Below, piece after piece: positions 1 to 63,860 of a stretch of 63,860 bases of DNA. Source of the stretch: a virus. How positions within the stretch are numbered: position 1 is the stretch's first letter; every line of letters begins with the position of its first letter. The notes below the pieces were generated by a model, which was not told the origin of the DNA, ran no database searches, and worked only from the letters and a program-made list of their open reading frames with translations. Location: positions 1-63,860 of IMG/VR virus record IMGVR_UViG_3300045391_003291; one strand, given 5' to 3'. The position numbers were made by a program, and so were the translations under genes.

Positions 1-51
1 CCATCGCCATCGCCATAGCCATAGCCATTGCCATCGCCATCGCCATTGCCA
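1..51. repeat. Terminal overlap of a circular assembly: nt 1-51 are identical to nt 63810-63860, giving a unit genome of 63,809 bp
   Basis: Hand comparison of both window ends gives 51/51 identical bases, including the same order of 8 hexamer variants (c,c,a,a,t,c,c,t). Confidence 0.85.
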
Positions 52-95
52 TCGCCATTGCCATAGCCATAGCCATTGCCATTGCCATAGCCATA
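1..95 (-). repeat. Hexanucleotide tandem repeat (GCCATN)n, 16 units, coding Gly-Asp/Asn/Tyr dipeptides on the minus strand
   Basis: Strict 6-nt period read directly. Only the third base of ATN varies (c/a/t, giving D/Y/N). Confidence 0.95.
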
Positions 96-110
96 GGCGC
101 TACTGGTCAT
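1..110 (-). CDS. 5' part of a wrap-around gene for a Gly-X dipeptide-repeat protein (117 aa after circular closure; continues 63809 to 63566)
   Basis: ATG at 110-108 overlaps the stop of the upstream ORF (ATGA). It reads MTSSA, then YG YG NG NG YG YG NG DG and so on. The ORF is open to the window edge, and codon phase matches the 3' part once the 51-nt overlap is removed. Confidence 0.6.
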   Translation of the reverse strand, partial: MTSSAYGYGNGNGYGYGNGDGNGDGDGNGYGYGDGD

Positions 111-5603: not shown

Positions 5604-5605
5604 GG

Positions 5606-6007: not shown

Positions 6008-6073
6008 AACAGGCCCTCGAAGGTTCGGCGCGTGTCGGATGTCACGCGAGACACGAATATATGCGCGTCAACG

Positions 6074-6091
6074 AAACGTGTCAACACGTTT
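6074..6091. promoter_or_regulatory. Perfect palindrome AAACGTGT-CA-ACACGTTT (candidate operator) in a divergent control region
   Basis: Read directly. It lies between the divergent gene starts at 6007 and 6156. Confidence 0.5.
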
Positions 6092-7385: not shown

Positions 7386-7747
7386 TCCCCCTGTTTCCGA
7401 TCCGCGACGGCTTCCCCATTCACGAACTTCGCAACCGTGGGGCGCTGGTGATCGATGACATCGTTAAGAGTGGCGCTCATATAAGCAGAATGAGCAATTC
7501 CGAACTGGTAGCCCTCTATGTCGCCATTGGGGGCCCGTACGGTGTAGAACGAGGGTATTTGATGCCTCTAACGAAAGTAGATCTAGATCAAGAACTGGGG
7601 TGTCTTGTTGTAGTAGAAAACGGCCGAGCTCGCCGCTTCACTTACGCGCAAATGAAGGAGTGCGCAGATAAAGCTAGAAGAGAGAGGGAAGTAAAAAACA
7701 GTAGGAACCTTTTCCGTATAGGCAATGATCGCCCATGGATGTACTGA
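7382..7747 (+). CDS. paralog family member d (121 aa)
   Basis: ATGA overlap. Motifs HISRMSNSELVALYVAIGG, QELGCLVVVE and FTYAQM. Confidence 0.7.
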   Translation: MIPLFPIRDGFPIHELRNRGALVIDDIVKSGAHISRMSNSELVALYVAIGGPYGVERGYLMPLTKVDLDQELGCLVVVENGRARRFTYAQMKECADKARREREVKNSRNLFRIGNDRPWMY

Positions 7748-7796
7748 CGTTGCAACTGTATAGGGTCAAGTCTATTCTGAGCCTAGAGACGCAAAA

Positions 7797-7816
7797 CCCG
7801 CCATAAGGCGGGTTCT
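7797..7816 (+). terminator. Hairpin CCCGCC-ATAA-GGCGGG followed by TTCT
   Basis: Read directly, 50 nt after the stop at 7747. The U tract is weak. Confidence 0.5.
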
Positions 7817-7926
7817 ACGCTCCAGATGATGAGCATCTGAATTCTGACGTGTGACGGCACGGCAGCGGCGCGCGGCGAAATTCTCGCCCACGCTTCAAGC
7901 CTCGTCAACAGTAGCGAGGTTTGAGA

Positions 7927-8160
7927 ATGCCAAAACGATCACCCATCCCGACCGCTGACGAGATCAGAGGACCGAGCACGCCCGTTCACCATTACAGCCG
8001 ATTGACGGTGCTGGCGAACGAAGCCGGACGCTTCTTCGTGGGCAAGGTCGCTTTTATGCTGATGACGGACGGCGGCAATACCTCGGTGCAGATCAGTAGC
8101 AGGACGTGGGACACGCGCCAAGCCGCGCAGGATGCACTTGATGGCGAGTTCTTCGTGTGA
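7927..8160 (+). CDS. hypothetical protein (77 aa; a TTG at 7921 is also possible), weakly paralog-like
   Basis: ORF track. The segment HHYSRLTVLANEA resembles family motif 2. Confidence 0.5.
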   Translation: MPKRSPIPTADEIRGPSTPVHHYSRLTVLANEAGRFFVGKVAFMLMTDGGNTSVQISSRTWDTRQAAQDALDGEFFV

Positions 8161-8844: not shown

Positions 8845-8883
8845 TTATCCACAGACAAACCGCAGTTATCCACACAATCCACA
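8845..8883 (+). promoter_or_regulatory. Cluster of DnaA-box-like 9-mers: TTATCCACA (8845-8853), TTATCCACA (8866-8874), CAATCCACA (8875-8883)
   Basis: Two exact matches to the TTATCCACA consensus, 21 nt apart and in the same orientation, plus one 7/9 copy. Confidence 0.6.
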
Positions 8884-8946
8884 GCTACCAGGGAAGCAGC
8901 CAAGCGCTCTACACTGACGACACATCGTCACACCAGAGCGCCGACA

Positions 8947-9537
8947 ATGGATCAACTCCCGCAGACACAAGGCAAGCCGTCAACCGTCACAAAGCGGCCC
9001 GATGATCTGCCGTATCGCTACCAACCGCCCAAGTTAAAGCGCATCCCGCGCAACGTCCCACTTGGTAGCAAGCCAGACCACGAAGCCCAGATTCTGCAAG
9101 CCATCGAATGCGGTCAGACCATGCATGAGATAGCCGAACAGATCGGACGCGATGTCTCCATACTCTCAAGATGGCTCGCCGATCCACAAAGAGCAGCAAA
9201 GGCGAAAGAGTCGCGCCGGCTTCAGGCCGTGTACTGGGATGAGCTCGCGGAAAGGACGATTAAAGAGTTGCCCTCAAACGCGACACCAGCGGCAATGCTC
9301 CGCGCACGTGAACTTGCATCGCATTACCGCTGGCGCGCCAAGTCCATTGCCCCGCATGACTACGGCGACAGGCCGCTGATAGATGCCGAGCAGGAGGCAC
9401 AGCGTCAGGCTCAGGCACTGAACGGAGACACGGCCCGCCTCGTCCTTGGTGGCATCCTTGCCGCCATCGGACTGCAGGTCTCAGAGCTCCCCAAGGACAG
9501 AGCAGGCAGAGTAATCGATCACGATTCAACAACTTAG
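8947..9537 (+). CDS. HTH protein, candidate small terminase subunit (196 aa)
   Basis: Internal ATG (MDQLPQTQGK...). HTH-like segment QTMHEIAEQIGRDVSILSRW. The C-terminal ARELASHYRWRAKSIAPHDYGD resembles the TerS motif (...KWxxxKxxPKxYGD). Confidence 0.5.
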   Translation: MDQLPQTQGKPSTVTKRPDDLPYRYQPPKLKRIPRNVPLGSKPDHEAQILQAIECGQTMHEIAEQIGRDVSILSRWLADPQRAAKAKESRRLQAVYWDELAERTIKELPSNATPAAMLRARELASHYRWRAKSIAPHDYGDRPLIDAEQEAQRQAQALNGDTARLVLGGILAAIGLQVSELPKDRAGRVIDHDSTT

Positions 9538-9613: not shown

Positions 9614-9771
9614 CGTTCCCTTGCTGTTCGGCTGGTGCTGCTGTGCCCATCCATTCCAAAAGGTACCGGGCGCCCAAAAGGAGGCTCCAAGCGCGACCCG
9701 GGGGGTGTGCGAATTCACGAGCGGCCCGAAATCTAAATCACCACCCACTCTTCGTACTTTCATTAAACTGT

Positions 9772-9800
9772 TTCATCAAGTGACGTTCATCTGTCACACT
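9772..9800 (+). promoter_or_regulatory. Promoter/operator module copy A (TTCATC-N2-GTGAC-N8-GTCAC; -10-like CACACT)
   Basis: Same architecture and spacing as the copies at 10286 and 10807. It ends 12 nt before the ATG at 9812. Confidence 0.4.
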
Positions 9801-9811
9801 GGAGAGGCCTG

Positions 9812-10258
9812 ATGTCTGGTATCTACCTGCCGAAGGAAATGGTTGCTTCGAGCCAGCGAAGTGTTGGGATACGGACTCCGGTGGTTCTTGGTCCTTACGA
9901 CACGAAGCTTTCTCCTGACGACGAGAAGAATTTTCTGGCGTGGTCGGCGAAGTACCCTGATCGAACTGGGTCGACGGATTACGACATGCGTGGGTGGTGG
10001 AAGGAGCATGGAAGTGTTGATCCAGGAGGCGGTCATTTCTCGGATAAGTACAAGAAGCCAAACCACCCGACGTTTTCTGACGAGAGCATTTACAGCGGGG
10101 TTGATGAGAACGTCGGTGGTAAGTGGGTAAAGGGGGATGGTGGTAAGTGGTCTTTTTCAGCGTCACAAACAAACCTGCAGCATCATTCAGAAGACGAGCT
10201 TCGAAAATATTTCGAACGCGTTGAGTCTGGTAATACGCTTGTTCTCCCAAAGCGGTAG
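9812..10258 (+). CDS. hypothetical protein (148 aa)
   Basis: ORF track, with GGAGAGG RBS. Confidence 0.7.
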   Translation: MSGIYLPKEMVASSQRSVGIRTPVVLGPYDTKLSPDDEKNFLAWSAKYPDRTGSTDYDMRGWWKEHGSVDPGGGHFSDKYKKPNHPTFSDESIYSGVDENVGGKWVKGDGGKWSFSASQTNLQHHSEDELRKYFERVESGNTLVLPKR

Positions 10259-10285
10259 ACGCTCTTCGTCCTTTCTCGTTTTTGC

Positions 10286-10314
10286 TTGAACGTGTGACGC
10301 TTCCGCGTTACAGT
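10286..10314 (+). promoter_or_regulatory. Promoter P1: TTGAAC-N17-TACAGT with embedded GTGAC-N8-GTTAC
   Basis: Hexamers and spacer counted by hand. It is near-identical to P2 (shared GTGTGACG......CGTTACAGTGC). Confidence 0.6.
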
Positions 10315-10319
10315 GCATT

Positions 10320-10416
10320 GGGGGGACATGGCATGGCCGCTGGTACCCAGCCTTGGGGGATCTCGAGGAGCGCACTGGGCTATCGAAGTGAGGTTCGATT
10401 CCTCCGCCTTCCACCA
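10320..10416 (+). ncRNA. tRNA-like structured RNA/leader (RNA1): T-arm mimic plus acceptor-like helix with G3:U70, A73 and an encoded CCA
   Basis: It starts 6 nt after the P1 -10. The 3' end reads TGAGG-TTCGATT-CCTCC-GCCTTCC-A-CCA, and the 5' GGGGGGA pairs with GCCTTCC. The interior does not fold as a cloverleaf. Confidence 0.4.
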
Positions 10417-10436
10417 ATTACGAACTGGAGATTTCT

Positions 10437-10751
10437 GTGGATATGAATCAGCGGAGCGGGTTGATCGGTGCGGGTCGGTCTCAGGTGAATACGGCTTGTG
10501 TGGAGGTACGTCGGTCGCAGGTCGAGGAGCAGCTGTCGAGGCAGCTGCAGACGATTTCGAGTCTGAGCGAGACGGCGCAGGCTTTGATTGCCCGGTTGAC
10601 TCCGGTGTTGCGGGAGGCTGACAAGGTCGGTCCCAACAGCGTGCCGCAGGAATACCTGGTGCCTGTGGCGGCGTCGGTCCGTTCCAATACGGACGGTATC
10701 AATAACGTCATGCTCATGCTGTCGGATGTGTTGGAGCGTCTCGAGGTCTGA
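10437..10751 (+). CDS. hypothetical coiled-coil protein (104 aa)
   Basis: ORF track with GTG start 7 nt after GGAG, followed by a strong terminator. Confidence 0.65.
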   Translation: MDMNQRSGLIGAGRSQVNTACVEVRRSQVEEQLSRQLQTISSLSETAQALIARLTPVLREADKVGPNSVPQEYLVPVAASVRSNTDGINNVMLMLSDVLERLEV

Positions 10752-10767
10752 CCGAATCGATCCAACG

Positions 10768-10792
10768 GCCCCGGCAAGTCCGGGGCTTTTTT
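10768..10792 (+). terminator. Intrinsic terminator GCCCCGG-CAAGT-CCGGGGC followed by T6
   Basis: Read directly. Confidence 0.85.
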
Positions 10793-10806
10793 ATGACCAG
10801 CGGTAG

Positions 10807-10835
10807 TTGCGTGTGTGACGGCACATCGTTACAGT
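10807..10835 (+). promoter_or_regulatory. Promoter P2: TTGCGT-N17-TACAGT with embedded GTGAC-N8-GTTAC
   Basis: Counted by hand; a paralog of P1. Confidence 0.6.
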
Positions 10836-10841
10836 GCGTGT

Positions 10842-10952
10842 GCTGGTGCTGGCCCTTACGGACAGCTCTGCGACCGGATGGCAAGGGTGGTGGTTCGAAT
10901 CCACGAGCGGGGGATCCCGTGACGGCGTGACGGCAAGGACCCTGCCACCAGC
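10842..10952 (+). ncRNA. Structured leader RNA2, closed by a 7-bp helix (GCTGGTG/CACCAGC) and containing a T-arm mimic (GGTGG-TTCGAAT-CCACG)
   Basis: It starts 6-7 nt after the P2 -10. Helices drawn by hand. It contains a tandem GTGACGGC GTGACGGC. Confidence 0.35.
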
Positions 10953-10966
10953 TTTACGAGGAGCGC

Positions 10967-11104
10967 ATGAAAAAGGTTGAACCCGAACGTGTTGAGTATC
11001 CACCGAAGGTATGTCCTGAGTGCGGTCGGGCTATTCGCAAGCCAGCCAAGAGCGGGGCGCAGCGGACTCGGGAGTACCGGGATCGGAAGCGGCAGGCGTC
11101 GTGA
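10967..11104 (+). CDS. small basic protein (45 aa) with one CxxC
   Basis: Hand translation MKKVEPERVEYPPKVCPECGRAIRKPAKSGAQRTREYRDRKRQAS, with GAGGAG RBS. Below the ORF-track cut-off. Confidence 0.5.
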   Translation: MKKVEPERVEYPPKVCPECGRAIRKPAKSGAQRTREYRDRKRQAS

Positions 11105-11289
11105 CATACGAACAGGCGATCAATCTCAAGTCGTTCCAGCACCACTGCCAATGCGGAGGATATGCCTGGAATTTCAACGGTCGAGATGAGGAGCAGCCGC
11201 ATATGTCGTGGTGTCCTCAGTTCGATGAATACGCGGAGTGGCGTGCCGCGTTGAAGCAGGGTCAATCTGGAGGTGTGTCGTGCGGGTGA
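11101..11289 (+). CDS. hypothetical Cys-containing protein (62 aa)
   Basis: GTGA overlap with the previous stop; in frame with ORF 11020..11289. Confidence 0.5.
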   Translation: MTYEQAINLKSFQHHCQCGGYAWNFNGRDEEQPHMSWCPQFDEYAEWRAALKQGQSGGVSCG

Positions 11290-11576
11290 ATGTTTACGCG
11301 GAAGAGATGACGGACCGGGTCGAGATCGTCGAGAAGGAGACGGCGGACGGGACGTTCACGGGCCTTCGTATCTATCTCGAGCTGCCAGTCACGGTGCCTG
11401 GTCCGGCCGGCGGCAACACGGTCTACAGAGGACCGTTCATGCACAAGCCTGGGGACGACGACTCGAGCGCGGTCACGTTCTGGGGCAAGCAGGATCTGCG
11501 CGCGGTGTTGCGCAAGGCTCTGGAGGCACTGGATGAGCACTACGACAAACGAGATTCCGGCGGTACCACCGTCTGA
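11280..11576 (+). CDS. hypothetical protein (98 aa)
   Basis: GTG after GGAGGTG; in frame with ORF 11238..11576. Confidence 0.55.
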   Translation: MRVNVYAEEMTDRVEIVEKETADGTFTGLRIYLELPVTVPGPAGGNTVYRGPFMHKPGDDDSSAVTFWGKQDLRAVLRKALEALDEHYDKRDSGGTTV

Positions 11577-11670
11577 TTTCAACGGCTGGTCTGGGTCACT
11601 CGACGAGATACTCTGACCGGATACTCCCCTCCGGAGTCCAGCCGCCATTTCAACGACAAGGAGTTCAACG

Positions 11671-12033
11671 ATGTCTGTTTTCACTCTCACCGGTAGTTTC
11701 CCCACGGCTTCGGCCACCAAGCTCGTCGCGAGCGGCGTCCAGGCCGCATCGTGGGTCGTCAAGGTTTTCGATTCCAACAACAACCAGCTGAGCCAGGCGA
11801 GCGTTCCGTATACGGATACACCGCCGGATGAAGGCGTGCCGTTCACGGCTGAAGGCATCTCGGCCGAGCTCGGCGACGTTCTCCGTGTGACGGTCCAGAC
11901 GCTGGACAATCTCGGCGTCGGCCTCGATTCCGGTCAGGCCGCCGACATCACGGTTCAGCTGACGCCGGTCGAACTGACGTTCCAGTCGACCTCCGGGGCG
12001 CCTGGCAACGCGGTGTTCACGCAGACCGCGTAA
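11671..12033 (+). CDS. hypothetical beta-rich protein (120 aa)
   Basis: ORF track, with AAGGAG RBS. Confidence 0.7.
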   Translation: MSVFTLTGSFPTASATKLVASGVQAASWVVKVFDSNNNQLSQASVPYTDTPPDEGVPFTAEGISAELGDVLRVTVQTLDNLGVGLDSGQAADITVQLTPVELTFQSTSGAPGNAVFTQTA

Positions 12034-12165
12034 TGGTCTGCGTACCATGCCAACGGTTCTGGGCGTGGCTATGCGCCCAGTTCCCGTGGCTGTTCAAGCA
12101 GTGCCCGCTGACGTTTCAAAGCGTCAGCGGTCCTGCCAGGGGGGAGTTCAAATCGGAGGGGTCTG

Positions 12166-12495
12166 ATGGATGATTTTGAGCAGCAGATGCGCAAAGACTT
12201 GACCGCACTACTTGGCTGGATCGAGAAGTCCGAGAGTGCCGCCGAGTGCATTACCAACATTTGCGTATGGCAGTTGCAGCTGATGGTGATGTGGGACAAG
12301 GCTAAAGAGTCTTCGAACACCTTCGAAATCGGATGCGTTCGGACTTCTTTCGGCGCCTCCACTATGATGCTCAAGGCGATTGCGGAAGGACTTGCCGCCG
12401 GCGAGACATGGTCATTCCAGCGCCGGGTTGCCTGCGATGCCTTTCACCGTGATGGTCAGCATGCGCTACAGCTTCGCATGAAGGCAGAAGGATGA
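12166..12495 (+). CDS. hypothetical protein (109 aa)
   Basis: ORF track, with GGAGGG RBS. Confidence 0.6.
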   Translation: MDDFEQQMRKDLTALLGWIEKSESAAECITNICVWQLQLMVMWDKAKESSNTFEIGCVRTSFGASTMMLKAIAEGLAAGETWSFQRRVACDAFHRDGQHALQLRMKAEG

Positions 12496-12701
12496 AGGTC
12501 TTCGTTAACAGGAGATGTGAAGGACACTATCCAGTCGGATTTGCGGCAATTGTTATCGCAACCGATGAGAGAGAGGCGACTGATCAGTTGAACAGAGCCC
12601 TGTCTATTGCTGGTCTACCAGAGACCGCACATCACTCTCAGTTCGAGGAAGTCCCTACCGAAGTTCGCTGTGCGATGATCTTGGTTGACGGTAACTATTA
12701 A
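12492..12701 (+). CDS. hypothetical protein (69 aa)
   Basis: ATGA overlap with the upstream gene. Confidence 0.6.
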   Translation: MKVFVNRRCEGHYPVGFAAIVIATDEREATDQLNRALSIAGLPETAHHSQFEEVPTEVRCAMILVDGNY

Positions 12702-12777
12702 GCAGCCGTAGCTCAGTTGGTAGAGCGGCAGCCTTCCAAGCTGTCTGTCGCGGGTTCGAGCCAAGCCGGCTGCTCCA
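12702..12777 (+). tRNA. tRNA-Gly(UCC)-like, 76 nt with encoded CCA and a T stem with only 3 of 5 pairs
   Basis: Hand-drawn cloverleaf: acceptor GCAGCCG/CGGCTGC, D arm GCTC-AGTTGGTA-GAGC, anticodon arm GCAGC-CTTCCAA-GCTGT, T arm GCGGG-TTCGAGC-CAAGC, discriminator T. Confidence 0.6.
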
Positions 12778-12791
12778 GTCAGGAGAGTGTT

Positions 12792-13067
12792 GTGGAAGAC
12801 AAAATCGTGTTTGGATTCATCCCCGACAACAGCGGCAAGGCCGCCGACGTCGTCGTTCTCGGTATTCCGACTGCCGCCTGGGAATACATGAAGGACGGTC
12901 ACACCCACACTCTGGACCTCACCAAGATCGGCATCCCGATGAAGCTGATCCTGTTCGGTTCCGCCACACACCAGGCGGCTCTGGACGTCATCAAGCAGCA
13001 CAACGAAGGCAAGCCGATGGAAGACCGCCGGCACGAAGACTTCTCGGTCAAGCCCGATGGCAGCTGA
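12792..13067 (+). CDS. hypothetical protein (91 aa)
   Basis: GTG 4 nt after AGGAGAG. The longer track ORF would overlap the tRNA. Confidence 0.55.
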   Translation: MEDKIVFGFIPDNSGKAADVVVLGIPTAAWEYMKDGHTHTLDLTKIGIPMKLILFGSATHQAALDVIKQHNEGKPMEDRRHEDFSVKPDGS

Positions 13068-13425
13068 TAAGCCAGGGCAGTACGCGGCTACCATTGGATA
13101 CAGTGAGGAACTGTTCCAGCAGTATGTGAAGACGAAGAAATTCAAGTCGTCGTTTTTCGATCCTGAGGCTAGAACTGGGCGGACGACTCAACAGATATTC
13201 TTTGCCCCGCGTAACGCCGTATTTGTATGGTGTACCCACATTCTCGATTACCCGAAGAAGATCGCGAGCGAGTTCCACCGGGAAGACCTGATGATTGTCG
13301 GTCCAGACTGGATTGCTGAGAGGAAGTTTTACGGCTGTCAGTACAGCCACATCGTGCTCGATCATGCTTACGTTACGATAGAACCCGATCGTCTTGAAGA
13401 AGCGATTGTCAGGTGCCGCTCATGA
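13057..13425 (+). CDS. hypothetical protein (122 aa), paralog of the next gene
   Basis: Shares IVGPDWIAERKFYGCQYSHIVLD with KIVTPSWLMERQFEKCEYSTIILD in the next gene. Confidence 0.6.
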   Translation: MAADKPGQYAATIGYSEELFQQYVKTKKFKSSFFDPEARTGRTTQQIFFAPRNAVFVWCTHILDYPKKIASEFHREDLMIVGPDWIAERKFYGCQYSHIVLDHAYVTIEPDRLEEAIVRCRS

Positions 13426-13721
13426 GGTTCGTTGACTTCCTCAGCTTCATGCCGACAAACGGCGTCTACGTCACCTGGGACCAGGACCGCGCCATGGACA
13501 TGGCCGTGTGCGCGATGGTCAACAAAAGACCCGACATCAAGATCGTGACACCGAGCTGGTTGATGGAACGCCAGTTCGAGAAATGCGAGTACTCGACCAT
13601 CATCCTGGATGAGAGAATCGTATTCGGAGATCCTCGAGAACACCTCGACAACAATATGCGAAATCTGCTGATTGAGGCGATGGATCGCATCAAGACATTC
13701 CACGCGAGCGAGGGCCAGTAA
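13413..13721 (+). CDS. hypothetical protein (102 aa), paralog of the previous gene
   Basis: ORF track, with the shared motif listed for 13057. Confidence 0.6.
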   Translation: MPLMRFVDFLSFMPTNGVYVTWDQDRAMDMAVCAMVNKRPDIKIVTPSWLMERQFEKCEYSTIILDERIVFGDPREHLDNNMRNLLIEAMDRIKTFHASEGQ

Positions 13722-13774
13722 GGACTGCATGCGGTCCCCAATCTCTTACTGAGAGCTGGCCAAAGTAGGATCCG

Positions 13775-13812
13775 CCAGTTCGACCTACCAAAGTGTGGTA
13801 GTTCGAAACCGG
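13775..13812. other. Imperfect 6+5-bp hairpin/inverted repeat (CCAGTTCGACCTACCA-AAGTG-TGGTAGTTCGAAACCGG) upstream of the recombinase gene
   Basis: Pairing worked out by hand. A second hairpin, GCATCC-N8-GGATGC, lies at 13828-13847. Confidence 0.45.
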
Positions 13813-13873
13813 AAAGCGACGACACGGGCATCCACTGGCGGGGATGCTCTGAAGTTGAAATAGACTACGTTGT

Positions 13874-13891
13874 GTGACACCATGCCGTCAC
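13874..13891 (+). promoter_or_regulatory. Operator module copy D (GTGAC-N8-GTCAC) at the 5' end of the recombinase gene
   Basis: Read directly; part of the 7-bp palindrome GTGTGAC-N8-GTCACAC. Confidence 0.45.
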
Positions 13892-13909
13892 ACCATCGCG
13901 GAAACTCCA

Positions 13910-14623
13910 GTGAAGCAAGCCATCAGCTATCTCCGTGTCAGTACCGACAAGCAAGGCATCTCAGGGCTCGGGATTGAAGCCCAGCGCCACGCGGTCGAGC
14001 AGATGTGCGCACAGCGCGGGTACCGACTCATCGAAGAGTTCGTAGAGGCTGATAGCGGCCGCAGGAACGATCGACCTCAGCTGCAGCGTGCACGGGCTAT
14101 GGCGCGCGCCGCCGGCGCCGTACTGGTCGTTGCAAAGCTGGATCGCCTGGCCCGTGACGTCGACATGATCCGTTCGATCATGGCCAGCAAAGAGCAGGTT
14201 GTGTTCTGCGACTTCCCTCAGATTCCGGACGGACCCATGGGTGAGATGATGATCACCCTGATGGCAGCCTTTGCCGAGTTCGAGTCGAACTGCATCAGCA
14301 AGCGCACCAAAGACGCCATGCAGGCGGCCAAGAAGCGCGGCCAGAAGTTCGGCAACCCGGAGGCCCTGGCCAGGTGGAGGAGGGGGCGTAAGATCGACGT
14401 CTCTCGCGCCAACGAGGCCAGGCAGGCTATCGCACAGCAGAAGATCAACGACGTGGAGCCTGTGATCCAGGACCTTCGTATGAAAGGAATCACGACGCTC
14501 CGTGGCATTGCTTCAATGCTTAACTTCAAAGGAATCAAGTCACCAAGCGGAAGAGATTGGAAAGCCGAAAGTGTGCGGCGTGTGCTGCGCGCCATCCCTG
14601 ATGTTACAACCACCATGCAGTAG
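13910..14623 (+). CDS. small serine recombinase (resolvase/invertase-size, 237 aa; 249 aa if the GTG at 13874 is used)
   Basis: N-terminal VKQAISYLRVSTDKQ (catalytic Ser motif), VVAKLDRLARD, and a C-terminal HTH-like ITTLRGIASMLN. Confidence 0.85.
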   Translation: MKQAISYLRVSTDKQGISGLGIEAQRHAVEQMCAQRGYRLIEEFVEADSGRRNDRPQLQRARAMARAAGAVLVVAKLDRLARDVDMIRSIMASKEQVVFCDFPQIPDGPMGEMMITLMAAFAEFESNCISKRTKDAMQAAKKRGQKFGNPEALARWRRGRKIDVSRANEARQAIAQQKINDVEPVIQDLRMKGITTLRGIASMLNFKGIKSPSGRDWKAESVRRVLRAIPDVTTTMQ

Positions 14624-15273: not shown

Positions 15274-16800
15274 GTGGACCAGATGGCTCAAATCCTGGCC
15301 ACACTTCCACAGGAAGTGGTCAGACAGATCCCGGCGGACTGGCTCAAGCTTTCTCCAACTGAGCTCGTCACCAAGCTGACCGCTCACATCCAGACGCAGG
15401 AAAAGAAAAACAGGCTGATCAATTTCAAGCCGTTCCCGAAGCAGATGGAGTTCTACCGGCACGGGCTTACCCATCGGGAAAGGCTATTCCGCGCCATCAA
15501 CCAGGTCGGCAAGACCATGGGCGCAGCGGTCGAGACGGTCTACCACCTGACTGGGAATTATCCGAACTGGTGGCCAGGTATCCGGTTTGTGAACGCTACC
15601 CGCGGCTGGGTGATGTCGGAGTCGATGCAGTTCTCTCGAGACGCAGCGCAGAAGCTGTTGCTCGGGGAAAGCCCTGAGGAATGGGGCACTGGCCTTCTGC
15701 CAGCGGCATCGATCAAGAAGATCGTGCGCGCCAGCCACTCGGTTCAGGACGCCGTGGACACCCTGCGCGTGAAGCACATCAGCGGAGGTGTCAGCACCCT
15801 GGTGTTCAAGTCGGCTGAAGTCGAGCAGAACAAGCTCGGCGGCGACACGCTGCATTTCGCCTGGATGGACGAGGAGCCTCCGTACGGTCACTACGAGGAG
15901 GTCTATACAAGAACCAACGTCCACAAAGGACCCGTATACACAACCTTCACCCCGTTGAAGGGCGCTACACAGCTGGTCGTAGAGCTCATCGATAAGGCCA
16001 AGCTGGCCGGCTCGAGCGTCGCTGACATCCGCTGGACCATCGACGACGAGTCGATCTACAGCGATGCCGACAAGGAGGCGATGAAGCTTAAGTACGCCAA
16101 CTCATCCGACAAGGACGCCCGTCTCTACGCTGAGCCGACGCGTGGTTCAGGTTCTGTTTTCCAGTCGATCAACGAGGATTCGATCAAGTACCGCCACATC
16201 GATATCCCGGATCACTGGTACCGCATCTGCGGAATGGACTTCGGCATCAAGGACCCTACCTGCCTTGTCTACATCGCTCACGATCGTGACAACGATGTGT
16301 ACTACCTGTACGACGCCTACGGACAGACGGACAAGCCAGCGGCGGTGCACTACGAGGCCTGGAAGTCGAGGGGCGAGCATATCCCCGTGGCATGGCCGGC
16401 AGACGGCCTGCAGCGCGGAAAGGCAGACGGCATTCAGCTCAAGCGCGTGTACGAAGGCTTGGGGATGTACATGCTGTCGGATCCAGCGATGCTCCCGGAG
16501 ACGAACGCCAGGGGAGAGAACAATCGCAGTAGGACCTCGGTTGAAGCGAGTCTCGGCGACCTGATCGAATTGATGCAACAAGGCCGCTTCAAGGTTGCTG
16601 CCCACCTGGAACCGTGGTGGAGAGAATTCAAAGCCTACTTCCGCAAGAAGGACGGCAAACTCAATGATGCCGACAACCATTTCATCGACGCCACGCGCTA
16701 TGCCTTAATGATGGAAATGCAGGGTGCAGGCGTACAGGGTGGACGATATGAGAAACTGCGTTACACCAGAAACAGCAGTTTCCGTTCGCGTTATGCATAG
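15274..16800 (+). CDS. terL: terminase large subunit
   Basis: Walker A-like NQVGKT, Walker B-like FAWMDEEP, and nuclease-region motifs GMDFG and HFIDATRYAL. GGAGG RBS. Followed by the portal gene. Confidence 0.9.
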   Translation: MDQMAQILATLPQEVVRQIPADWLKLSPTELVTKLTAHIQTQEKKNRLINFKPFPKQMEFYRHGLTHRERLFRAINQVGKTMGAAVETVYHLTGNYPNWWPGIRFVNATRGWVMSESMQFSRDAAQKLLLGESPEEWGTGLLPAASIKKIVRASHSVQDAVDTLRVKHISGGVSTLVFKSAEVEQNKLGGDTLHFAWMDEEPPYGHYEEVYTRTNVHKGPVYTTFTPLKGATQLVVELIDKAKLAGSSVADIRWTIDDESIYSDADKEAMKLKYANSSDKDARLYAEPTRGSGSVFQSINEDSIKYRHIDIPDHWYRICGMDFGIKDPTCLVYIAHDRDNDVYYLYDAYGQTDKPAAVHYEAWKSRGEHIPVAWPADGLQRGKADGIQLKRVYEGLGMYMLSDPAMLPETNARGENNRSRTSVEASLGDLIELMQQGRFKVAAHLEPWWREFKAYFRKKDGKLNDADNHFIDATRYALMMEMQGAGVQGGRYEKLRYTRNSSFRSRYA

Positions 16801-18956: not shown

Positions 18957-19305
18957 CCATCGGCTGATTCAGGCGCTGGTGATTGACCGTGGCCTGAGCC
19001 AGGACTCCATAGACCTCGTGGATCAGATCGACCACGAGGTGCCACGCCGGCACGCGGTACAGATTCGGAAGTCCCGAGAAAGTCTCTTCATCCGATAGGC
19101 AATCAACCAGCCTGTCGGGGTCCTGTCCGCGGTTCGACACGAGCATGCGCGCCGCCGGTTCGTAGAACTCCAGCATGTCCTTCTGATCGTCGGTGTACTC
19201 CTTCTCCTTGAAAACCTGCTCGGCCTTGAACTGGCCACGCCCAAGAGCGTCGACCAGCTTGACCATGTTGGAAATGCGGATTGGTTTCGGTTCCTGATTC
19301 TTCAT
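18901..19305 (-). CDS. hypothetical protein (134 aa) in an antisense insert
   Basis: ORF track. ATGA-coupled to the AlpA-like gene. Its 3' end overlaps the portal 3' end by 56 nt. Confidence 0.55.
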   Translation of the reverse strand: MKNQEPKPIRISNMVKLVDALGRGQFKAEQVFKEKEYTDDQKDMLEFYEPAARMLVSNRGQDPDRLVDCLSDEETFSGLPNLYRVPAWHLVVDLIHEVYGVLAQATVNHQRLNQPMVTNAPESAMGQEPSAEVH

Positions 19306-19466
19306 GCTGTTTTCCTCGTTTCAATCCAGTGCTGGATGGTTGATAGGCGCCAAGCGATTCGGTGATTCCCGAGCTTTATTGGATGAGGGAAGTCCCCGCG
19401 TTTCACCATGTCATCGATGGTGCGCCTACCGAGGGTTGTTATCTCCATCACCTTTTTTTTCGACAT
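19302..19466 (-). CDS. AlpA/excisionase-family-like HTH protein (54 aa)
   Basis: MSKKKVMEITTLGRRTIDDMVKRGDFPHPIKLGNHRIAWRLSTIQHWIE matches the remembered AlpA pattern (FP.P.K.G......W....I..W). Confidence 0.6.
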   Translation of the reverse strand: MSKKKVMEITTLGRRTIDDMVKRGDFPHPIKLGNHRIAWRLSTIQHWIETRKTA

Positions 19467-19515
19467 AAGCGGATCGATGCGCACATTTTGGTGCGTCGAT
19501 CCAATAATCCCGGGC

Positions 19516-19562
19516 TGTGCGCTCATGCGCGCACAATACCGCGCAAGAGTTGTTGTTTTCAA
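19516..19562 (-). promoter_or_regulatory. Candidate leftward promoter TTGAAA-N18-TATTGT with an overlapping perfect palindrome TGTGCGC-N6-GCGCACA (19516-19535)
   Basis: Counted by hand on the minus strand, upstream of the AlpA-like gene. Confidence 0.45.
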
Positions 19563-63569: not shown

Positions 63570-63860
63570 AGAATTGTTCTCATCATTGAGTGAGTGTAAA
63601 GCGGTGCATGAACCTGCAAGAAGGTAGTTGCATCGGTTACGCCGTTGGCAACAAGAAGCTCAGCCGCGTCGCGCCATTCACCTATGGTGGTATCAGGTTG
63701 TAGATGGGTGTCGCCATAGCCATTGCCATTGCCATTGCCATCGCCATTGCCATCGCCATCGCCATAGCCATAGCCATAGCCATCGCCATCGCCATTGCCA
63801 TCGCCATTGCCATCGCCATCGCCATAGCCATAGCCATTGCCATCGCCATCGCCATTGCCA
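63566..63860 (-). CDS. 3' part of the wrap-around Gly-X repeat protein gene
   Basis: In-frame reading ...GYGDTHLQPDTTIGEWRDAAELLVANGVTDATTFLQVHAPLYTHSMMRTIL, stop at 63568-63566. Open to the window end. Confidence 0.6.
   Translation of the reverse strand, partial: GNGDGDGNGYGYGDGDGNGDGNGDGDGYGYGYGDGDGNGDGNGNGNGYGDTHLQPDTTIGEWRDAAELLVANGVTDATTFLQVHAPLYTHSMMRTIL
63710..63860 (-). repeat. Hexanucleotide tandem repeat (GCCATN)n: 24 GCCATN units plus the flanking Gly-Asp (GAC) codon pair at 63710-63715. The last 8 units duplicate the window start.
   Basis: Read directly. Together with 1-95 it gives 32 units in the closed circle. Confidence 0.95.

What the first reader, a model, noticed from the sequence alone, without database searches (positions are those of the whole stretch)
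9772..13894. Four copies of one promoter/operator module (GTGAC-N8-GTYAC) organise the accessory block between the TerS-like gene and TerL
Seen directly:
- GTGAC-N8-GTCAC occurs at 9780-9797 and 13874-13891.
- GTGAC-N8-GTTAC occurs at 10294-10311 and 10815-10832.
- The two middle copies lie inside near-identical promoters (TTGAAC or TTGCGT, N17, TACAGT; shared GTGTGACG......CGTTACAGTGC), with the right half-site overlapping the -10.
- A decayed left half (GTGTGACGGCAC, identical over 12 nt to the 10813 copy) sits at 7849-7860.
- A tandem GTGACGGC-GTGACGGC sits at 10919-10934.
- Every copy faces rightward and precedes its own unit: the 148-aa gene, RNA1 plus the 104-aa gene, RNA2 plus a cluster of small genes, and the serine recombinase.

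Inference: one dimeric DNA-binding protein co-regulates a set of moron-like cassettes. The copies at 9780 and 13874 would yield almost leaderless mRNAs. The copy on the recombinase gene suggests autoregulation, as resolvases do at res sites.
Basis: partly seen in the sequence, partly recalled or inferred. Interest (0 to 1): 0.65.

Follow-up and report, generated by a model that had tools for sequence, protein, structure and literature searches.

The report
Repeated dyad operator in phage accessory block
A soil phage carries five copies of one short inverted-repeat DNA site, each at the head of a gene unit in the variable block between its two terminase genes. A distant relative has its own four-copy version, so this is most likely a small phage-specific repressor regulon, but the protein that reads the sites is unknown.

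Summary
GTGAC-N8-GTYAC occurs at exactly the four stated places and nowhere else in 63.9 kb (0.24 expected). A fifth copy with one mismatch sits 15 nt before the TerS start codon.

Two copies (10294, 10815) lie inside good sigma-70-type promoters, TTGNNN-N17-TACAGT. The same promoter type drives tRNA genes and a small Zn-ribbon ORF in related phages. The other three copies lack credible -35/-10 elements, so the "leaderless mRNA" idea is not supported.

A related phage contig, L010, has four copies of its own dyad, TGTAAC-N7-GTTACA, in the same block (0.15 expected). A third relative has one dyad. Two lineages without the serine recombinase keep the promoter type but have no dyad.

"RNA1" and "RNA2" are decayed tRNA genes, not new RNAs.

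Best reading: these are dyad operators of a phage-encoded dimeric DNA-binding protein that controls the accessory (tRNA, moron, anti-defence) block. The 237-aa serine recombinase is the leading candidate binder, but this is unproven. One recombinase-bearing relative lacks dyads.

This is a new variant of known multi-operator regulons, of moderate interest.

The parts
8914..8931 (+). s0: fifth copy, CTGAC-N8-GTCAC (one mismatch), 15 nt before the TerS ATG. It directly follows a -10-like TACACT (8910-8915).
   Evidence: (repeat D2). TACACT is conserved before TerS in L257 and L258, but the dyad is not.
9780..9797 (+). s1: GTGAC-N8-GTCAC, 14 nt before the ATG of the 148-aa gene. The SD GGAGAGG lies between the site and the ATG.
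   Evidence: An alignment with L257 and L258 shows homology ending at this site.
10286..10314 (+). Promoter TTGAAC-N17-TACAGT containing s2 (GTGAC-N8-GTTAC, 10294-10311). The right arm overlaps the -10.
   Evidence: TCCGCGTTACAGT is identical to L010:9855-9870.
10807..10835 (+). Promoter TTGCGT-N17-TACAGT containing s3 (GTGAC-N8-GTTAC, 10815-10832). It lies just after a terminator.
13872..13893 (+). s4: the best dyad, GTGTGAC-N8-GTCACAC (core 13874-13891), 18 nt before the GTG start of the serine recombinase.
   Evidence: ACACCATGCC is shared with the L016 promoter spacer.
9747..9760 (+). Upstream element CTCTTCGTACTTTC, 33 nt before s1. Its twin lies at 10261-10274, 33 nt before s2.
   Evidence: Degenerate counterparts occur in L257 and L258.
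7849..7860 (+). Lone left half-site GTGTGACGGCAC, in the intergenic space before the 77-aa gene that starts at 7927.
10919..10934 (+). Tandem half-sites GTGACGGC-GTGACGGC.
   Evidence: Five of the eight GTGACGGC copies in the window lie between 7851 and 13891.
10321..10417 (+). 'RNA1': a decayed tRNA-Ser gene. The T arm, 3' acceptor strand and CCA are intact. The D and anticodon arms are degenerate.
   Evidence: ARAGORN and Rfam give no call at default settings. There is only a weak tRNA-Ser(CGA) call at 80% threshold. The 3' half aligns with tRNA-Ser of L016 and L010.
10842..10952 (+). 'RNA2': a tRNA-derived remnant with a T-arm-like GTGGTTCGAATCCAC. A further decayed copy of that arm lies at 9700-9724.
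   Evidence: (repeat D9). The folding energy is not exceptional (z = +1.2).
10767..10793 (+). Intrinsic terminator after the 104-aa gene. With s3 it forms a terminator-promoter composite.
   Evidence: The same terminator-promoter arrangement occurs in L016 and L017.
10967..11104 (+). 45-aa ORF with a CxxC motif and a basic helix. It is the first gene of the s3 unit and a candidate regulator.
   Evidence: Homologues sit directly upstream of the recombinase in L010 and L017, overlapping its start, and are also present in L016.
13910..14623 (+). 237-aa serine recombinase. It has a resolvase catalytic domain plus a helical C-terminal domain resembling the first part of the recombinase domain of large serine recombinases. 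It is the leading candidate binder.
   Evidence: PF00239 at 2.6e-34, PF07508 and PF20552 weak. See; the top structural match is Bxb1 integrase.
8947..9537 (+). TerS-like gene (Sf6_terminase with an N-terminal HTH). It forms the left border of the accessory block.
12702..12777 (+). Intact tRNA-Gly(TCC) inside the block.
15274..16800 (+). TerL, the right border of the block.

Best explanation
The five sites are dyad-symmetric operators for one phage-encoded, probably dimeric, DNA-binding protein. The consensus is (T)GTGACG-N6-CGTYACA, which puts the TGACG/CGTCA cores about 11 bp apart, roughly one helical turn.

The sites sit at the 5' edge of each transcription unit in the hypervariable block between TerS and TerL. 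That block holds tRNA genes and their remnants, ORFan morons and the serine recombinase. At 10294 and 10815 the right arm is fused to the -10 hexamer (GT-TACAGT) of strong sigma-70-type promoters, so a bound protein would exclude RNA polymerase. At 8914, 9780 and 13874 the site lies 14-18 nt before a start codon. There it would act on weak promoters or as a roadblock to read-through.

The expected net effect is coordinated shut-off, or a burst followed by repression, of the accessory block. The most likely binder is the 237-aa serine recombinase encoded at the end of the block, which would also repress its own unit as resolvases do at res. The 45-aa CxxC protein or an ORFan of the block are alternatives.

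Shown: the sites, their non-randomness, promoter overlap at two sites, and an independent counterpart in a relative. Inferred: that a protein binds, that it represses, and which protein it is.
For: - Statistics: 6 strand matches against 0.24 expected. Only spacing 8 is enriched. All copies are intergenic and lie within 5 kb.
- Selection pattern: the arms are invariant while spacers and flanks are near random (information content). s2 and s3 are identical at 19 of 19 flank bases and 1 of 6 spacer bases.
- Promoter overlap: TTGAAC/TTGCGT-N17-TACAGT are the only two such matches in the window. The same promoter type occurs in L010, L013, L015, L016 and L017, where it heads tRNA genes or the Zn-ribbon ORF.
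- Independent counterpart: L010 (recombinase 52% and TerL 42% identical) has 4 copies of TGTAAC-N7-GTTACA in the same block and none elsewhere in 20.7 kb (0.15 expected). Each heads a unit: a gene, tRNA-Ser, a gene, and the Zn-ribbon ORF plus recombinase. L017 has GTTAC-N7-GTAAC over the -10 of the recombinase operon promoter.
- The different arms and spacing per phage fit a co-evolving phage protein rather than a host factor.
- Lineages without the recombinase (L013/L014 and L015) keep the promoter type but have no repeated dyad.
- GTTAC/GTAAC dyads lie within 60 nt upstream of more distant recombinase homologues in L083 and L090. The count is 3 hits in 12.6 kb against 26 in 745 kb.
- The recombinase has a helical C-terminal DNA-binding domain.
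Against: - There is no binding or transcription data. The phage is known only from soil metagenomes.
- L016, and L257 from the same sample, carry the recombinase (55% identical) and a TerS (61% identical) but no dyad at the equivalent places. The recombinase is therefore not sufficient.
- Enrichment of dyads upstream of distant homologues is weak and rests on 2 loci. Palindromes in general are not clearly enriched there.
- In L017 and L083 the arm order relative to the dyad axis is reversed (GTTAC...GTAAC). This is awkward for one conserved binding mode.
- 18-22 bp is shorter than any characterised serine-recombinase dimer site.
- Three of the five window sites have no recognisable promoter, so repression there is conjecture.
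- The catalytic residues of the recombinase are fully conserved. It is therefore not merely a regulator.
Confidence: 0.5

Rival explanations
1. The dyads are recombination (crossover or att) sites of the adjacent serine recombinase. Either s4 is attP, or the set of sites lets the enzyme excise, insert or exchange the units between them, giving a cassette platform.
For: - s4 is the best dyad (7-bp arms) and lies 18 nt from the recombinase gene. In phage JC1 the attP lies 41 bp upstream of its serine recombinase gene (PMC9144972).
- The catalytic residues are conserved across 40 homologues, so the enzyme needs substrates.
- In L010 the 7-nt spacers are nearly identical (GATCCGC) while the flanks are random, as expected for a crossover core.
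- Homology between the window, L257 and L258 ends at s1.
- The genes between sites differ in every relative.
Against: - The window spacers and central dinucleotides differ (AC, CA, TC, AC, AT). Only s0 and s3 match, and recombining them would delete TerS.
- The L010 spacer is odd (7 nt), which does not fit a symmetric 2-nt staggered cut.
- The sites are 18-22 bp, against 26-50 bp for known serine recombinase sites.
- No deletion or inversion joints were found at the sites in three metagenome runs. These were contigs only at about 10x depth, so the test is weak. Three samples show the same arrangement.
- Homologues of the 148-aa gene in 70 other viral contigs carry no such dyads.
Confidence: 0.13
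2. The similarity is only shared descent. One promoter module was duplicated or acquired several times with morons or tRNA genes, as with PeSL-type terminator-promoter cassettes. The dyad has no function of its own.
For: - s1 and s2 share an upstream element at identical spacing. s2 and s3 share 19 flank bases. s0 and s4 are 73% identical over 26 nt.
- The terminator-promoter composite at s3 recurs in L016 and L017.
- T4-type phages use such composites at the edges of variable genes (PMC2839356, PMC4122927).
Against: - Conservation is confined to the two arms, while the spacer and the rest of the module have diverged.
- Relatives without dyads have the same promoter type with unrelated spacers, so the left arm is not needed for promoter function.
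- L010 evolved or keeps a different perfect dyad four times.
- s0 and s4 carry the dyad without the promoter.
Confidence: 0.15
3. The sites act as RNA hairpins on the + strand transcript. They would be stability, processing or translational operators placed just 5' of ribosome-binding sites.
For: - GTGAC/GTTAC can pair through G-U on the + strand only.
- Predicted RNA hairpins have 6-10 bp and -5 to -11 kcal/mol.
- s0, s1 and s4 lie 14-18 nt before start codons.
Against: - At s2, s3 and L010:9851 the hairpin overlaps the -10, so it lies upstream of the transcript it would regulate. s3 also follows a terminator.
- The stem sequence is fixed with no compensatory changes.
- The non-Watson-Crick inner pairs split 3 G-T to 2 A-C, so there is no strand preference.
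- The T in GTTAC is explained by the -10 hexamer.
Confidence: 0.08
4. The sites are binding sites of the small terminase (a pac-type recognition array) or of a host factor.
For: - The sites flank the TerS gene. TerS has an N-terminal HTH.
- TerS of the window and of L010 resemble each other (43%) more than those of the dyad-less L013 and L015.
Against: - The sites are spread over 5 kb and tied to gene starts, unlike the compact pac and cos arrays known for SPP1, P22 and lambda (my own knowledge).
- L257 and L258, with TerS 60-61% identical, lack dyads beside TerS.
- A different conserved element, AAGGTACCGG...CCGGGGGG, lies right after TerS in six lineages and is a better pac candidate.
- A host factor would not explain phage-specific arms and spacing.
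Confidence: 0.05

Closest known systems
Resolvase autoregulation at res (Tn3 and gamma-delta TnpR)
   Same: A serine recombinase gene is preceded by a dyad site that could be bound by its own product and overlaps promoter elements. The recombinase here has the same catalytic domain.
   Different: Known res sites are 25-34 bp and form three adjacent subsites. Here there are single 18-22 bp dyads, five of them spread over 5 kb in front of unrelated genes. The C-terminal domain is not the HTH_7 type but resembles the recombinase domain of large serine recombinases. Binding was not tested.
Stoperators of cluster A mycobacteriophages (L5, Bxb1, TipsytheTRex)
   Same: Many copies of one short repressor site lie in short intergenic spaces at the heads of units. 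At some places they act as promoter operators and at others as elongation blocks (PMC9283540, PMC6550527).
   Different: Stoperators are asymmetric 13-14 bp sites read by a monomeric repressor. They occur 20-30 times across the whole genome in one orientation. Here the sites are dyad-symmetric, number five, and are confined to one block. No immunity repressor has been identified.
PeSL terminator-promoter cassettes of T4-type phages
   Same: Conserved composite regulatory motifs, a terminator plus an early promoter, mark the edges of variable ORFan genes in hyperplastic regions (PMC2839356, PMC4122927). The s3 module and its counterparts in L016 and L017 have that form.
   Different: PeSLs are thought to work through homologous recombination between the motifs and carry no dyad operator. 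Here the conserved part is a dyad, and a site-specific recombinase gene lies in the block.
KorA/KorB global operators of IncP plasmids, and Arc/Mnt in the immI region of P22 (my own knowledge)
   Same: Palindromic operators overlap the -10 of several promoters of a mobile element and coordinate accessory or auxiliary operons through small dimeric repressors.
   Different: These are different proteins and sites, and no homologue was detected here. They are plasmid or immI contexts rather than a TerS-TerL block.
The TerS-TerL gap of Bcep22-like podoviruses (Lessievirus)
   Same: TerS lies far from TerL with a dozen small genes between them. The phages carry a serine tRNA gene and a serine recombinase (PMC9144972).
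   Different: There is no nucleotide similarity. Their recombinase is large (551 aa) and encoded elsewhere. No repeated dyad has been reported.

Membership tests
Sigma-70-type promoter | A -35 TTGNNN, a 17 +/- 1 bp spacer and a -10 TAnnnT | tested here: met
   Met for s2 (TTGAAC-N17-TACAGT) and s3 (TTGCGT-N17-TACAGT). The consensus scan missed them at its threshold of 9 of 12. Not met for s0, s1 and s4, whose -10 equivalents are CACACC or CACACT and whose -35 regions are poor.
Sigma-70-type promoter | Transcription start about 7 nt after the -10 | not testable with these tools
   Only DNA metagenome contigs exist for this phage.
Dyad operator of a dimeric repressor | Inverted-repeat half-sites at fixed spacing, more frequent than chance | tested here: met
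   L010 counterpart.
Dyad operator of a dimeric repressor | Overlap with core promoter elements or the transcription start | tested here: inconclusive
   Clear for s2, s3, L010:9851 and L017:222. s0 directly follows a conserved -10-like TACACT. s1 and s4 have no clear promoter.
Dyad operator of a dimeric repressor | An identified cognate DNA-binding protein | not testable with these tools
   The candidates are the recombinase, the 45-aa CxxC ORF and ORFans with no Pfam, PHROG or NCBIfam match.
Serine recombinase crossover or res site | A dyad site of about 26-34 bp (small recombinases) or 40-50 bp (large ones) with a central 2-bp crossover shared by partner sites | tested here: not met
   The sites are 18-22 bp. 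The central dinucleotides are AC, CA, TC, AC and AT. The L010 spacer is odd, at 7 nt.
Serine recombinase crossover or res site | Rearranged forms (deletion, inversion, integration) joined at the sites | tested here: inconclusive
   No joints at the sites in 3 runs, but these were contigs only at low depth. The arrangement is the same in 3 samples.
Small serine recombinase (resolvase/invertase), for the gene at 13910-14623 | An N-terminal catalytic domain with the catalytic Ser in YxRVSTxxQ, plus a C-terminal HTH_7 | tested here: inconclusive
   The catalytic domain is met (PF00239 at 2.6e-34; YLRVSTDKQ invariant). No HTH_7 is present. The C-terminus gives weak PF07508 and PF20552 hits, and the best structural match is Bxb1 integrase. 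It looks like a large serine recombinase lacking the zinc-ribbon and coiled-coil parts.
Stoperator system | Asymmetric 13-14 bp sites in dozens of copies genome-wide, in one orientation, read by an immunity repressor | tested here: not met
   The sites are dyad-symmetric, number five, and lie in one 5-kb block.
tRNA gene (for 'RNA1' and 'RNA2') | A cloverleaf recognised by ARAGORN or the Rfam RF00005 model | tested here: not met
   No call at default settings, nor at E <= 10. Only poor calls appear at the 80% threshold. The 3' half of RNA1 matches phage tRNA-Ser genes. Both are therefore pseudogenes or remnants.
PeSL-type regulatory cassette | A terminator stem-loop plus a promoter repeated at the borders of variable genes | tested here: inconclusive
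   The form is present at s3 and in L016 and L017. It is absent at s0, s1, s2 and s4. Shuffling was not tested.

The most novel reading that the evidence does not exclude
The dyads are the working sites of the truncated serine recombinase. Together they would form a phage-borne cassette platform, functionally integron-like but built on a serine recombinase. Units of tRNA, anti-defence and ORFan genes, each headed by one short dyad, would be captured, excised or swapped between TerS and TerL. The same sites would double as operators.
Probability: 0.07. Interest if true: 0.85.

Novelty: new variant of a known kind. Interest (0 to 1): 0.42.

Why it matters
The gap between the terminase genes in this podovirus lineage is a hyperplastic region. 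It holds tRNA genes, ORFans and, in relatives, recognised anti-defence genes (Acb3, Tad2-like).

A dedicated multi-site operator system would show that such accessory blocks are regulated as one unit by the phage itself. It would also supply a compact site and protein pair for study.

If the binder is the 237-aa recombinase, this would extend resolvase-style autoregulation to a regulon of unrelated genes. It would also define the DNA site of an abundant, uncharacterised clade of about 232-aa serine recombinases, which gave thousands of metagenomic hits.

The result also corrects the annotation of two supposed small RNAs to tRNA remnants.

Tried and rejected
- **Close relatives for site conservation.** There was no nucleotide match in 50,697 phage records. 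The exact promoter/operator pattern was absent from IMG/VR. TerL-based scans of the viral, metagenome and genome collections gave only distant loci. Identical metagenome contigs add nothing. Useful relatives came only through protein searches plus contig look-ups.
- **RNA1 and RNA2 as structured RNAs.** There was no Rfam family. The folding z-scores were +0.3 and +1.2. A tmRNA-like reading (G3-U70, ACCA end) was considered and dropped once the 3' half matched phage tRNA-Ser.
- **A phage RNA polymerase or sigma factor as reader of the sites.** None was found among the large or early proteins.
- **Cassette mobility.** Homologues of the 148-aa gene in 70 viral contigs have no dyads or recombinase nearby. 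The 104-aa gene has no relatives.
- **GTGTGAC-N8-GTCACAC across IMG/VR.** The 87 hits are not next to any recombinase homologue, so they are at chance level. The L010 19-mer gave no further hits.
- **Rearrangement joints in metagenome runs.** None was found at the sites.
- **General palindrome enrichment upstream of 80 recombinase homologues.** It was not clearly above chance.
- **TerS relatives in IMG/VR.** None was found.
- **Known host-factor motifs.** CRP, LexA, sigma-54, ECF sigma and MerR-type sites were compared from memory. None fits the half-sites and spacing.

Full report
**1.

GTGAC-N8-GTYAC occurs at 9780, 10294, 10815 and 13874 and nowhere else in the 63,860-base window. Counting both strands of the two perfect palindromes gives six matches, against 0.24 expected from dinucleotide shuffles. 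None of 100 shuffles reached six. Among all GTGAC...GTYAC spacings from 0 to 30, only spacing 8 is enriched.

The two middle copies share GTGTGACG-N6-CGTTACAGTGC. Their 19 flank bases are identical while the six spacer bases differ. The lone half-site GTGTGACGGCAC (7849-7860) and the tandem GTGACGGC-GTGACGGC (10919-10934) are also present.

**2. The set is larger and falls into two classes**

Allowing one mismatch adds CTGAC-N8-GTCAC at 8914-8931, 15 nt before the TerS ATG at 8947. One-mismatch hits alone are not significant (14 found, 7.7 expected). Three things make this one credible:
- It is 73% identical over 26 nt to the 13874 copy (GTCACACCA...).
- It shares the spacer (G/A)CACATC with the 10815 copy.
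- It lies in the same block as the other copies.

Class A is s2 (10294) and s3 (10815). These sit in TTGAAC/TTGCGT-N17-TACAGT, the only two such matches in the window. Their right arm is fused to the -10.

Class B is s0, s1 and s4. These have GTCACAC as the right arm and lie 14-18 nt before start codons. They have no acceptable -35 or -10.

s1 is nevertheless related by descent to s2. Both have CTCTTCGTNCTTTC exactly 33 nt upstream of GTGAC. The canonical SD GGAGAGG (9802-9808) in front of the 148-aa gene argues against a leaderless transcript starting near 9806.

Across the five copies the information content is maximal in the arms and near zero in the spacer and flanks. This points to selection on the arms rather than a recent copy.

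**3. Context**

The window is a complete-looking podovirus genome. The same hexamer repeat occurs at both ends. It is known only from soil metagenomes.

TerL is at most 49% identical to anything in 5.8 billion proteins and about 40% identical to the best cultured phage.

TerS (8947-9537) and TerL (15274-16800) are separated by 5.7 kb. That stretch holds ORFans, an intact tRNA-Gly and a 237-aa serine recombinase. A long TerS-TerL gap is also known in Bcep22-like phages (PMC9144972).

**4. Relatives**

Protein searches followed by contig look-ups gave the following lineages.

| Locus | Relation to the window | Promoter type found | Repeated dyad |
|---|---|---|---|
| L010 | recombinase 52%, TerL 42%, TerS 43% identical | TTGCAC-N17-TACAGT | 4 copies of TGTAAC-N7-GTTACA |
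| L017 | recombinase 54% | TTGACT-N17-TACCGT | GTTAC-N7-GTAAC, one copy in 1.8 kb |
| L016 (with L257, same sample; TerS 61%) | recombinase 55% | TTGCAC-N17-CAGTAT | none |
| L258 | TerS 60% | not found | none in 2.2 kb |
| L013/L014, L015 | TerL 47-49%, no recombinase | TTGCAC/TTGCGC-N17-TACAGT | none |

All of these share the order TerS, variable block, TerL, portal, AlpA-like gene (reverse strand), scaffold, capsid.

The promoter type TTGC(A/G)(C/T)-N17-TACAGT recurs in the block of L010, L013 and L015. Variants occur in L016 and L017. There it precedes tRNA genes (L013 tRNA-Pro) or a small CxxC ORF.

The decisive result is L010. It has four copies of its own perfect dyad, TGTAAC-N7-GTTACA, at 5605, 7450, 8310 and 9851. 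There are none elsewhere in 20.7 kb, against 0.15 expected even with one mismatch allowed. Each copy sits at the head of a unit:
- the first gene after TerS (17 nt before its ATG);
- tRNA-Ser plus a Tad2-like gene;
- a three-gene-plus-tRNA unit;
- the CxxC ORF, recombinase and TerL.

L010:9851 and window s2 are orthologous. TCCGCGTTACAGT is identical and there is a 1-nt indel in the spacer.

L017 has GTTAC-N7-GTAAC with its left arm in the -10 of the promoter that heads the recombinase operon.

The recombinase-less lineages keep the promoter type with unrelated spacers and have no repeated dyad. L016/L257 and L258 also lack dyads at the equivalent places. At the s1 position L257 has a half-decayed form, GTGTT-N9-GTTAC.

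In summary, the dyad is an add-on to an ancestral promoter. It differs in arm sequence and spacing between phages. In this small sample it is found only in lineages that have the recombinase, but not in all of them.

**5. RNA1 and RNA2**

ARAGORN and Rfam call only tRNA-Gly. At an 80% threshold ARAGORN gives poor tRNA-like calls at 10321-10416 (Ser-CGA) and 10824-10913.

The 3' half of RNA1, GAGGTTCGATTCCTCCGCCTTCCACCA, aligns with tRNA-Ser genes of L016 and L010. The T-arm-like piece of RNA2 recurs in decayed form at 9700-9724.

Folding energies are unremarkable. In relatives the same promoters drive intact tRNAs. These elements are therefore decayed tRNA genes that now serve as 5' leaders of the downstream ORFs.

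**6. Who reads the dyads?**

Phage-specific arms and spacing argue for a phage protein. The only proteins shared by the three dyad-bearing lineages in the DNA available are two.

The first is the recombinase. It has a resolvase-type catalytic domain with all catalytic residues conserved. Its helical C-terminal domain matches the start of the recombinase domain of large serine recombinases. The Pfam hits to PF07508 and PF20552 are weak. The AlphaFold model has mean pLDDT 78, and Bxb1 integrase is its best structural match. That domain binds close to the site centre in large serine recombinases (my own knowledge), which would suit a short 18-22 bp site.

The second is a 38-45-aa protein with a CxxC motif and a basic helix. 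It is translationally coupled to the recombinase in L010 and L017.

GTTAC/GTAAC dyads also lie 35-55 nt upstream of two more distant recombinase genes, in L083 and L090. This is about a sevenfold local enrichment on tiny numbers. In L083 no CxxC ORF intervenes.

Against the recombinase as binder:
- L016 has the enzyme without a dyad.
- The arm order is reversed in L017 and L083.
- Palindromes in general are not clearly enriched upstream of the 80 homologues.

I put the recombinase-as-binder sub-claim at about 0.3.

**7. Rivals**

*Crossover or att sites.* Several points are attractive:
- s4 abuts the recombinase gene.
- The enzyme is catalytically intact.
- The L010 spacers are nearly identical.
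- Homology to L257 and L258 ends at s1.

Against this:
- The window's central dinucleotides differ. The one matching pair, s0 and s3, would delete TerS.
- The L010 spacer is odd.
- The sites are short.
- No joints were seen, although this was a weak test.

*Pure shared descent.* This does not explain arm-only conservation or the independent L010 dyad.

*RNA hairpins.* They are thermodynamically possible. However, at the promoter-borne copies they lie upstream of the transcript, and they show no compensatory change or strand bias.

*TerS or pac binding.* This is unlikely. A separate conserved element right after TerS, AAGGTACCGG...CCGGGGGG, found in six lineages, is the better pac candidate.

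**8. Comparison and verdict**

Functionally the system resembles four known arrangements:
- resolvase autoregulation at res;
- mycobacteriophage stoperators (PMC9283540, PMC6550527);
- the KorA/KorB and Arc/Mnt multi-operator circuits;
- in its terminator-promoter form at s3, the PeSL cassettes of T4-type phages (PMC2839356, PMC4122927).

It fails the defining features of each as a member. The site length and shared crossover core do not fit res. It lacks the asymmetry, copy number and genome-wide spread of stoperators. It has no homologous proteins for the others.

I file it as a new variant of a known kind, a block-specific dyad operator set in a phage hyperplastic region, with moderate interest.

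Noticed in passing
window 8845-8853 and 8866-8874: Two exact DnaA boxes (TTATCCACA) lie in the same orientation, 21 nt apart. They are the only exact ones in the window. They sit 35-65 nt upstream of a -10-like TACACT (8910-8915) that is conserved before TerS in L257 and L258. This could be a DnaA-dependent TerS promoter or an origin-related element.
   Followed up: partly
window about 9655-9712; also L010:5475-5525, L013:7079-7300, L015:7225-7380, L257:1160-1215, L258:1400-1450: A conserved non-coding element lies just downstream of the TerS stop: AAAAGGTACCGG..AAAAGGAGGCTCC..CCGGGGGG. The GGTACC unit is repeated 2-5 times in some relatives. It is conserved across lineages whose TerL is only 42-49% identical, so it may be a pac site or an RNA element.
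   Followed up: partly
window 1-96 and 63711-63860: The contig begins and ends with the same hexamer tandem repeat (CCATAG/CCATCG; TCGCCA). This suggests a circular or complete assembly closed inside a roughly 40-copy repeat. It reads as (MA)n on the minus strand.
   Followed up: no
window 10967-11104; L010:9879-10001; L017:940-1056; L016:1455-1592: A conserved 38-45-aa ORF has the form MKK..CxxC..PMTxAQRxxxxRxRKR. It is directly upstream of the recombinase and overlaps its start in L010 and L017. In the window it lies 2.8 kb upstream of the recombinase. Its function is unknown.
   Followed up: partly
L010:6639-7430 and 7592-8107; L013:9783-10004: The TerS-TerL blocks of relatives encode Acb3-like and Tad2-like (anti-CBASS and anti-Thoeris) proteins and clusters of 2-5 tRNA genes. 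The block is therefore an anti-defence and tRNA hyperplastic region. The window's own block proteins are ORFans.
   Followed up: no
window 10910-10938 versus 13880-13908: The 3' part of RNA2 is 76% complementary over 29 nt to the leader of the recombinase gene (repeat I1). This is probably a by-product of shared GTGACGGC half-sites, but antisense pairing is not excluded.
   Followed up: no
window 19302-19562 (minus strand): An AlpA-like HTH gene lies on the opposite strand between the portal and scaffold genes. It is conserved at that place in L010, L013 and L015, including lineages without dyads.
   Followed up: partly
window 9812-10258: The 148-aa protein has no Pfam or PHROG match but has relatives (32-54% identical) on 70 IMG/VR contigs in varied contexts. 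It is a widespread phage accessory gene of unknown function.
   Followed up: partly
L085:35-900: Fourteen direct repeats with a 65-66-nt period lie at the end of a viral contig that also encodes a recombinase homologue. This is a CRISPR-like array.
   Followed up: no
window 6056-6084 (minus strand): The strongest consensus sigma-70 promoter in the window is TTGACA-N17-TATATT. It faces leftward, away from the block.
   Followed up: no
L257:1284-1310: GTTGCGT-CTGG-CGTTACAGGCGTG equals the flanks of window s3 (GTTGCGT...CGTTACAGTGCGTG) but lacks 10 nt, including the left arm. It is unclear whether this is an insertion in the window lineage or a deletion in L257.
   Followed up: no
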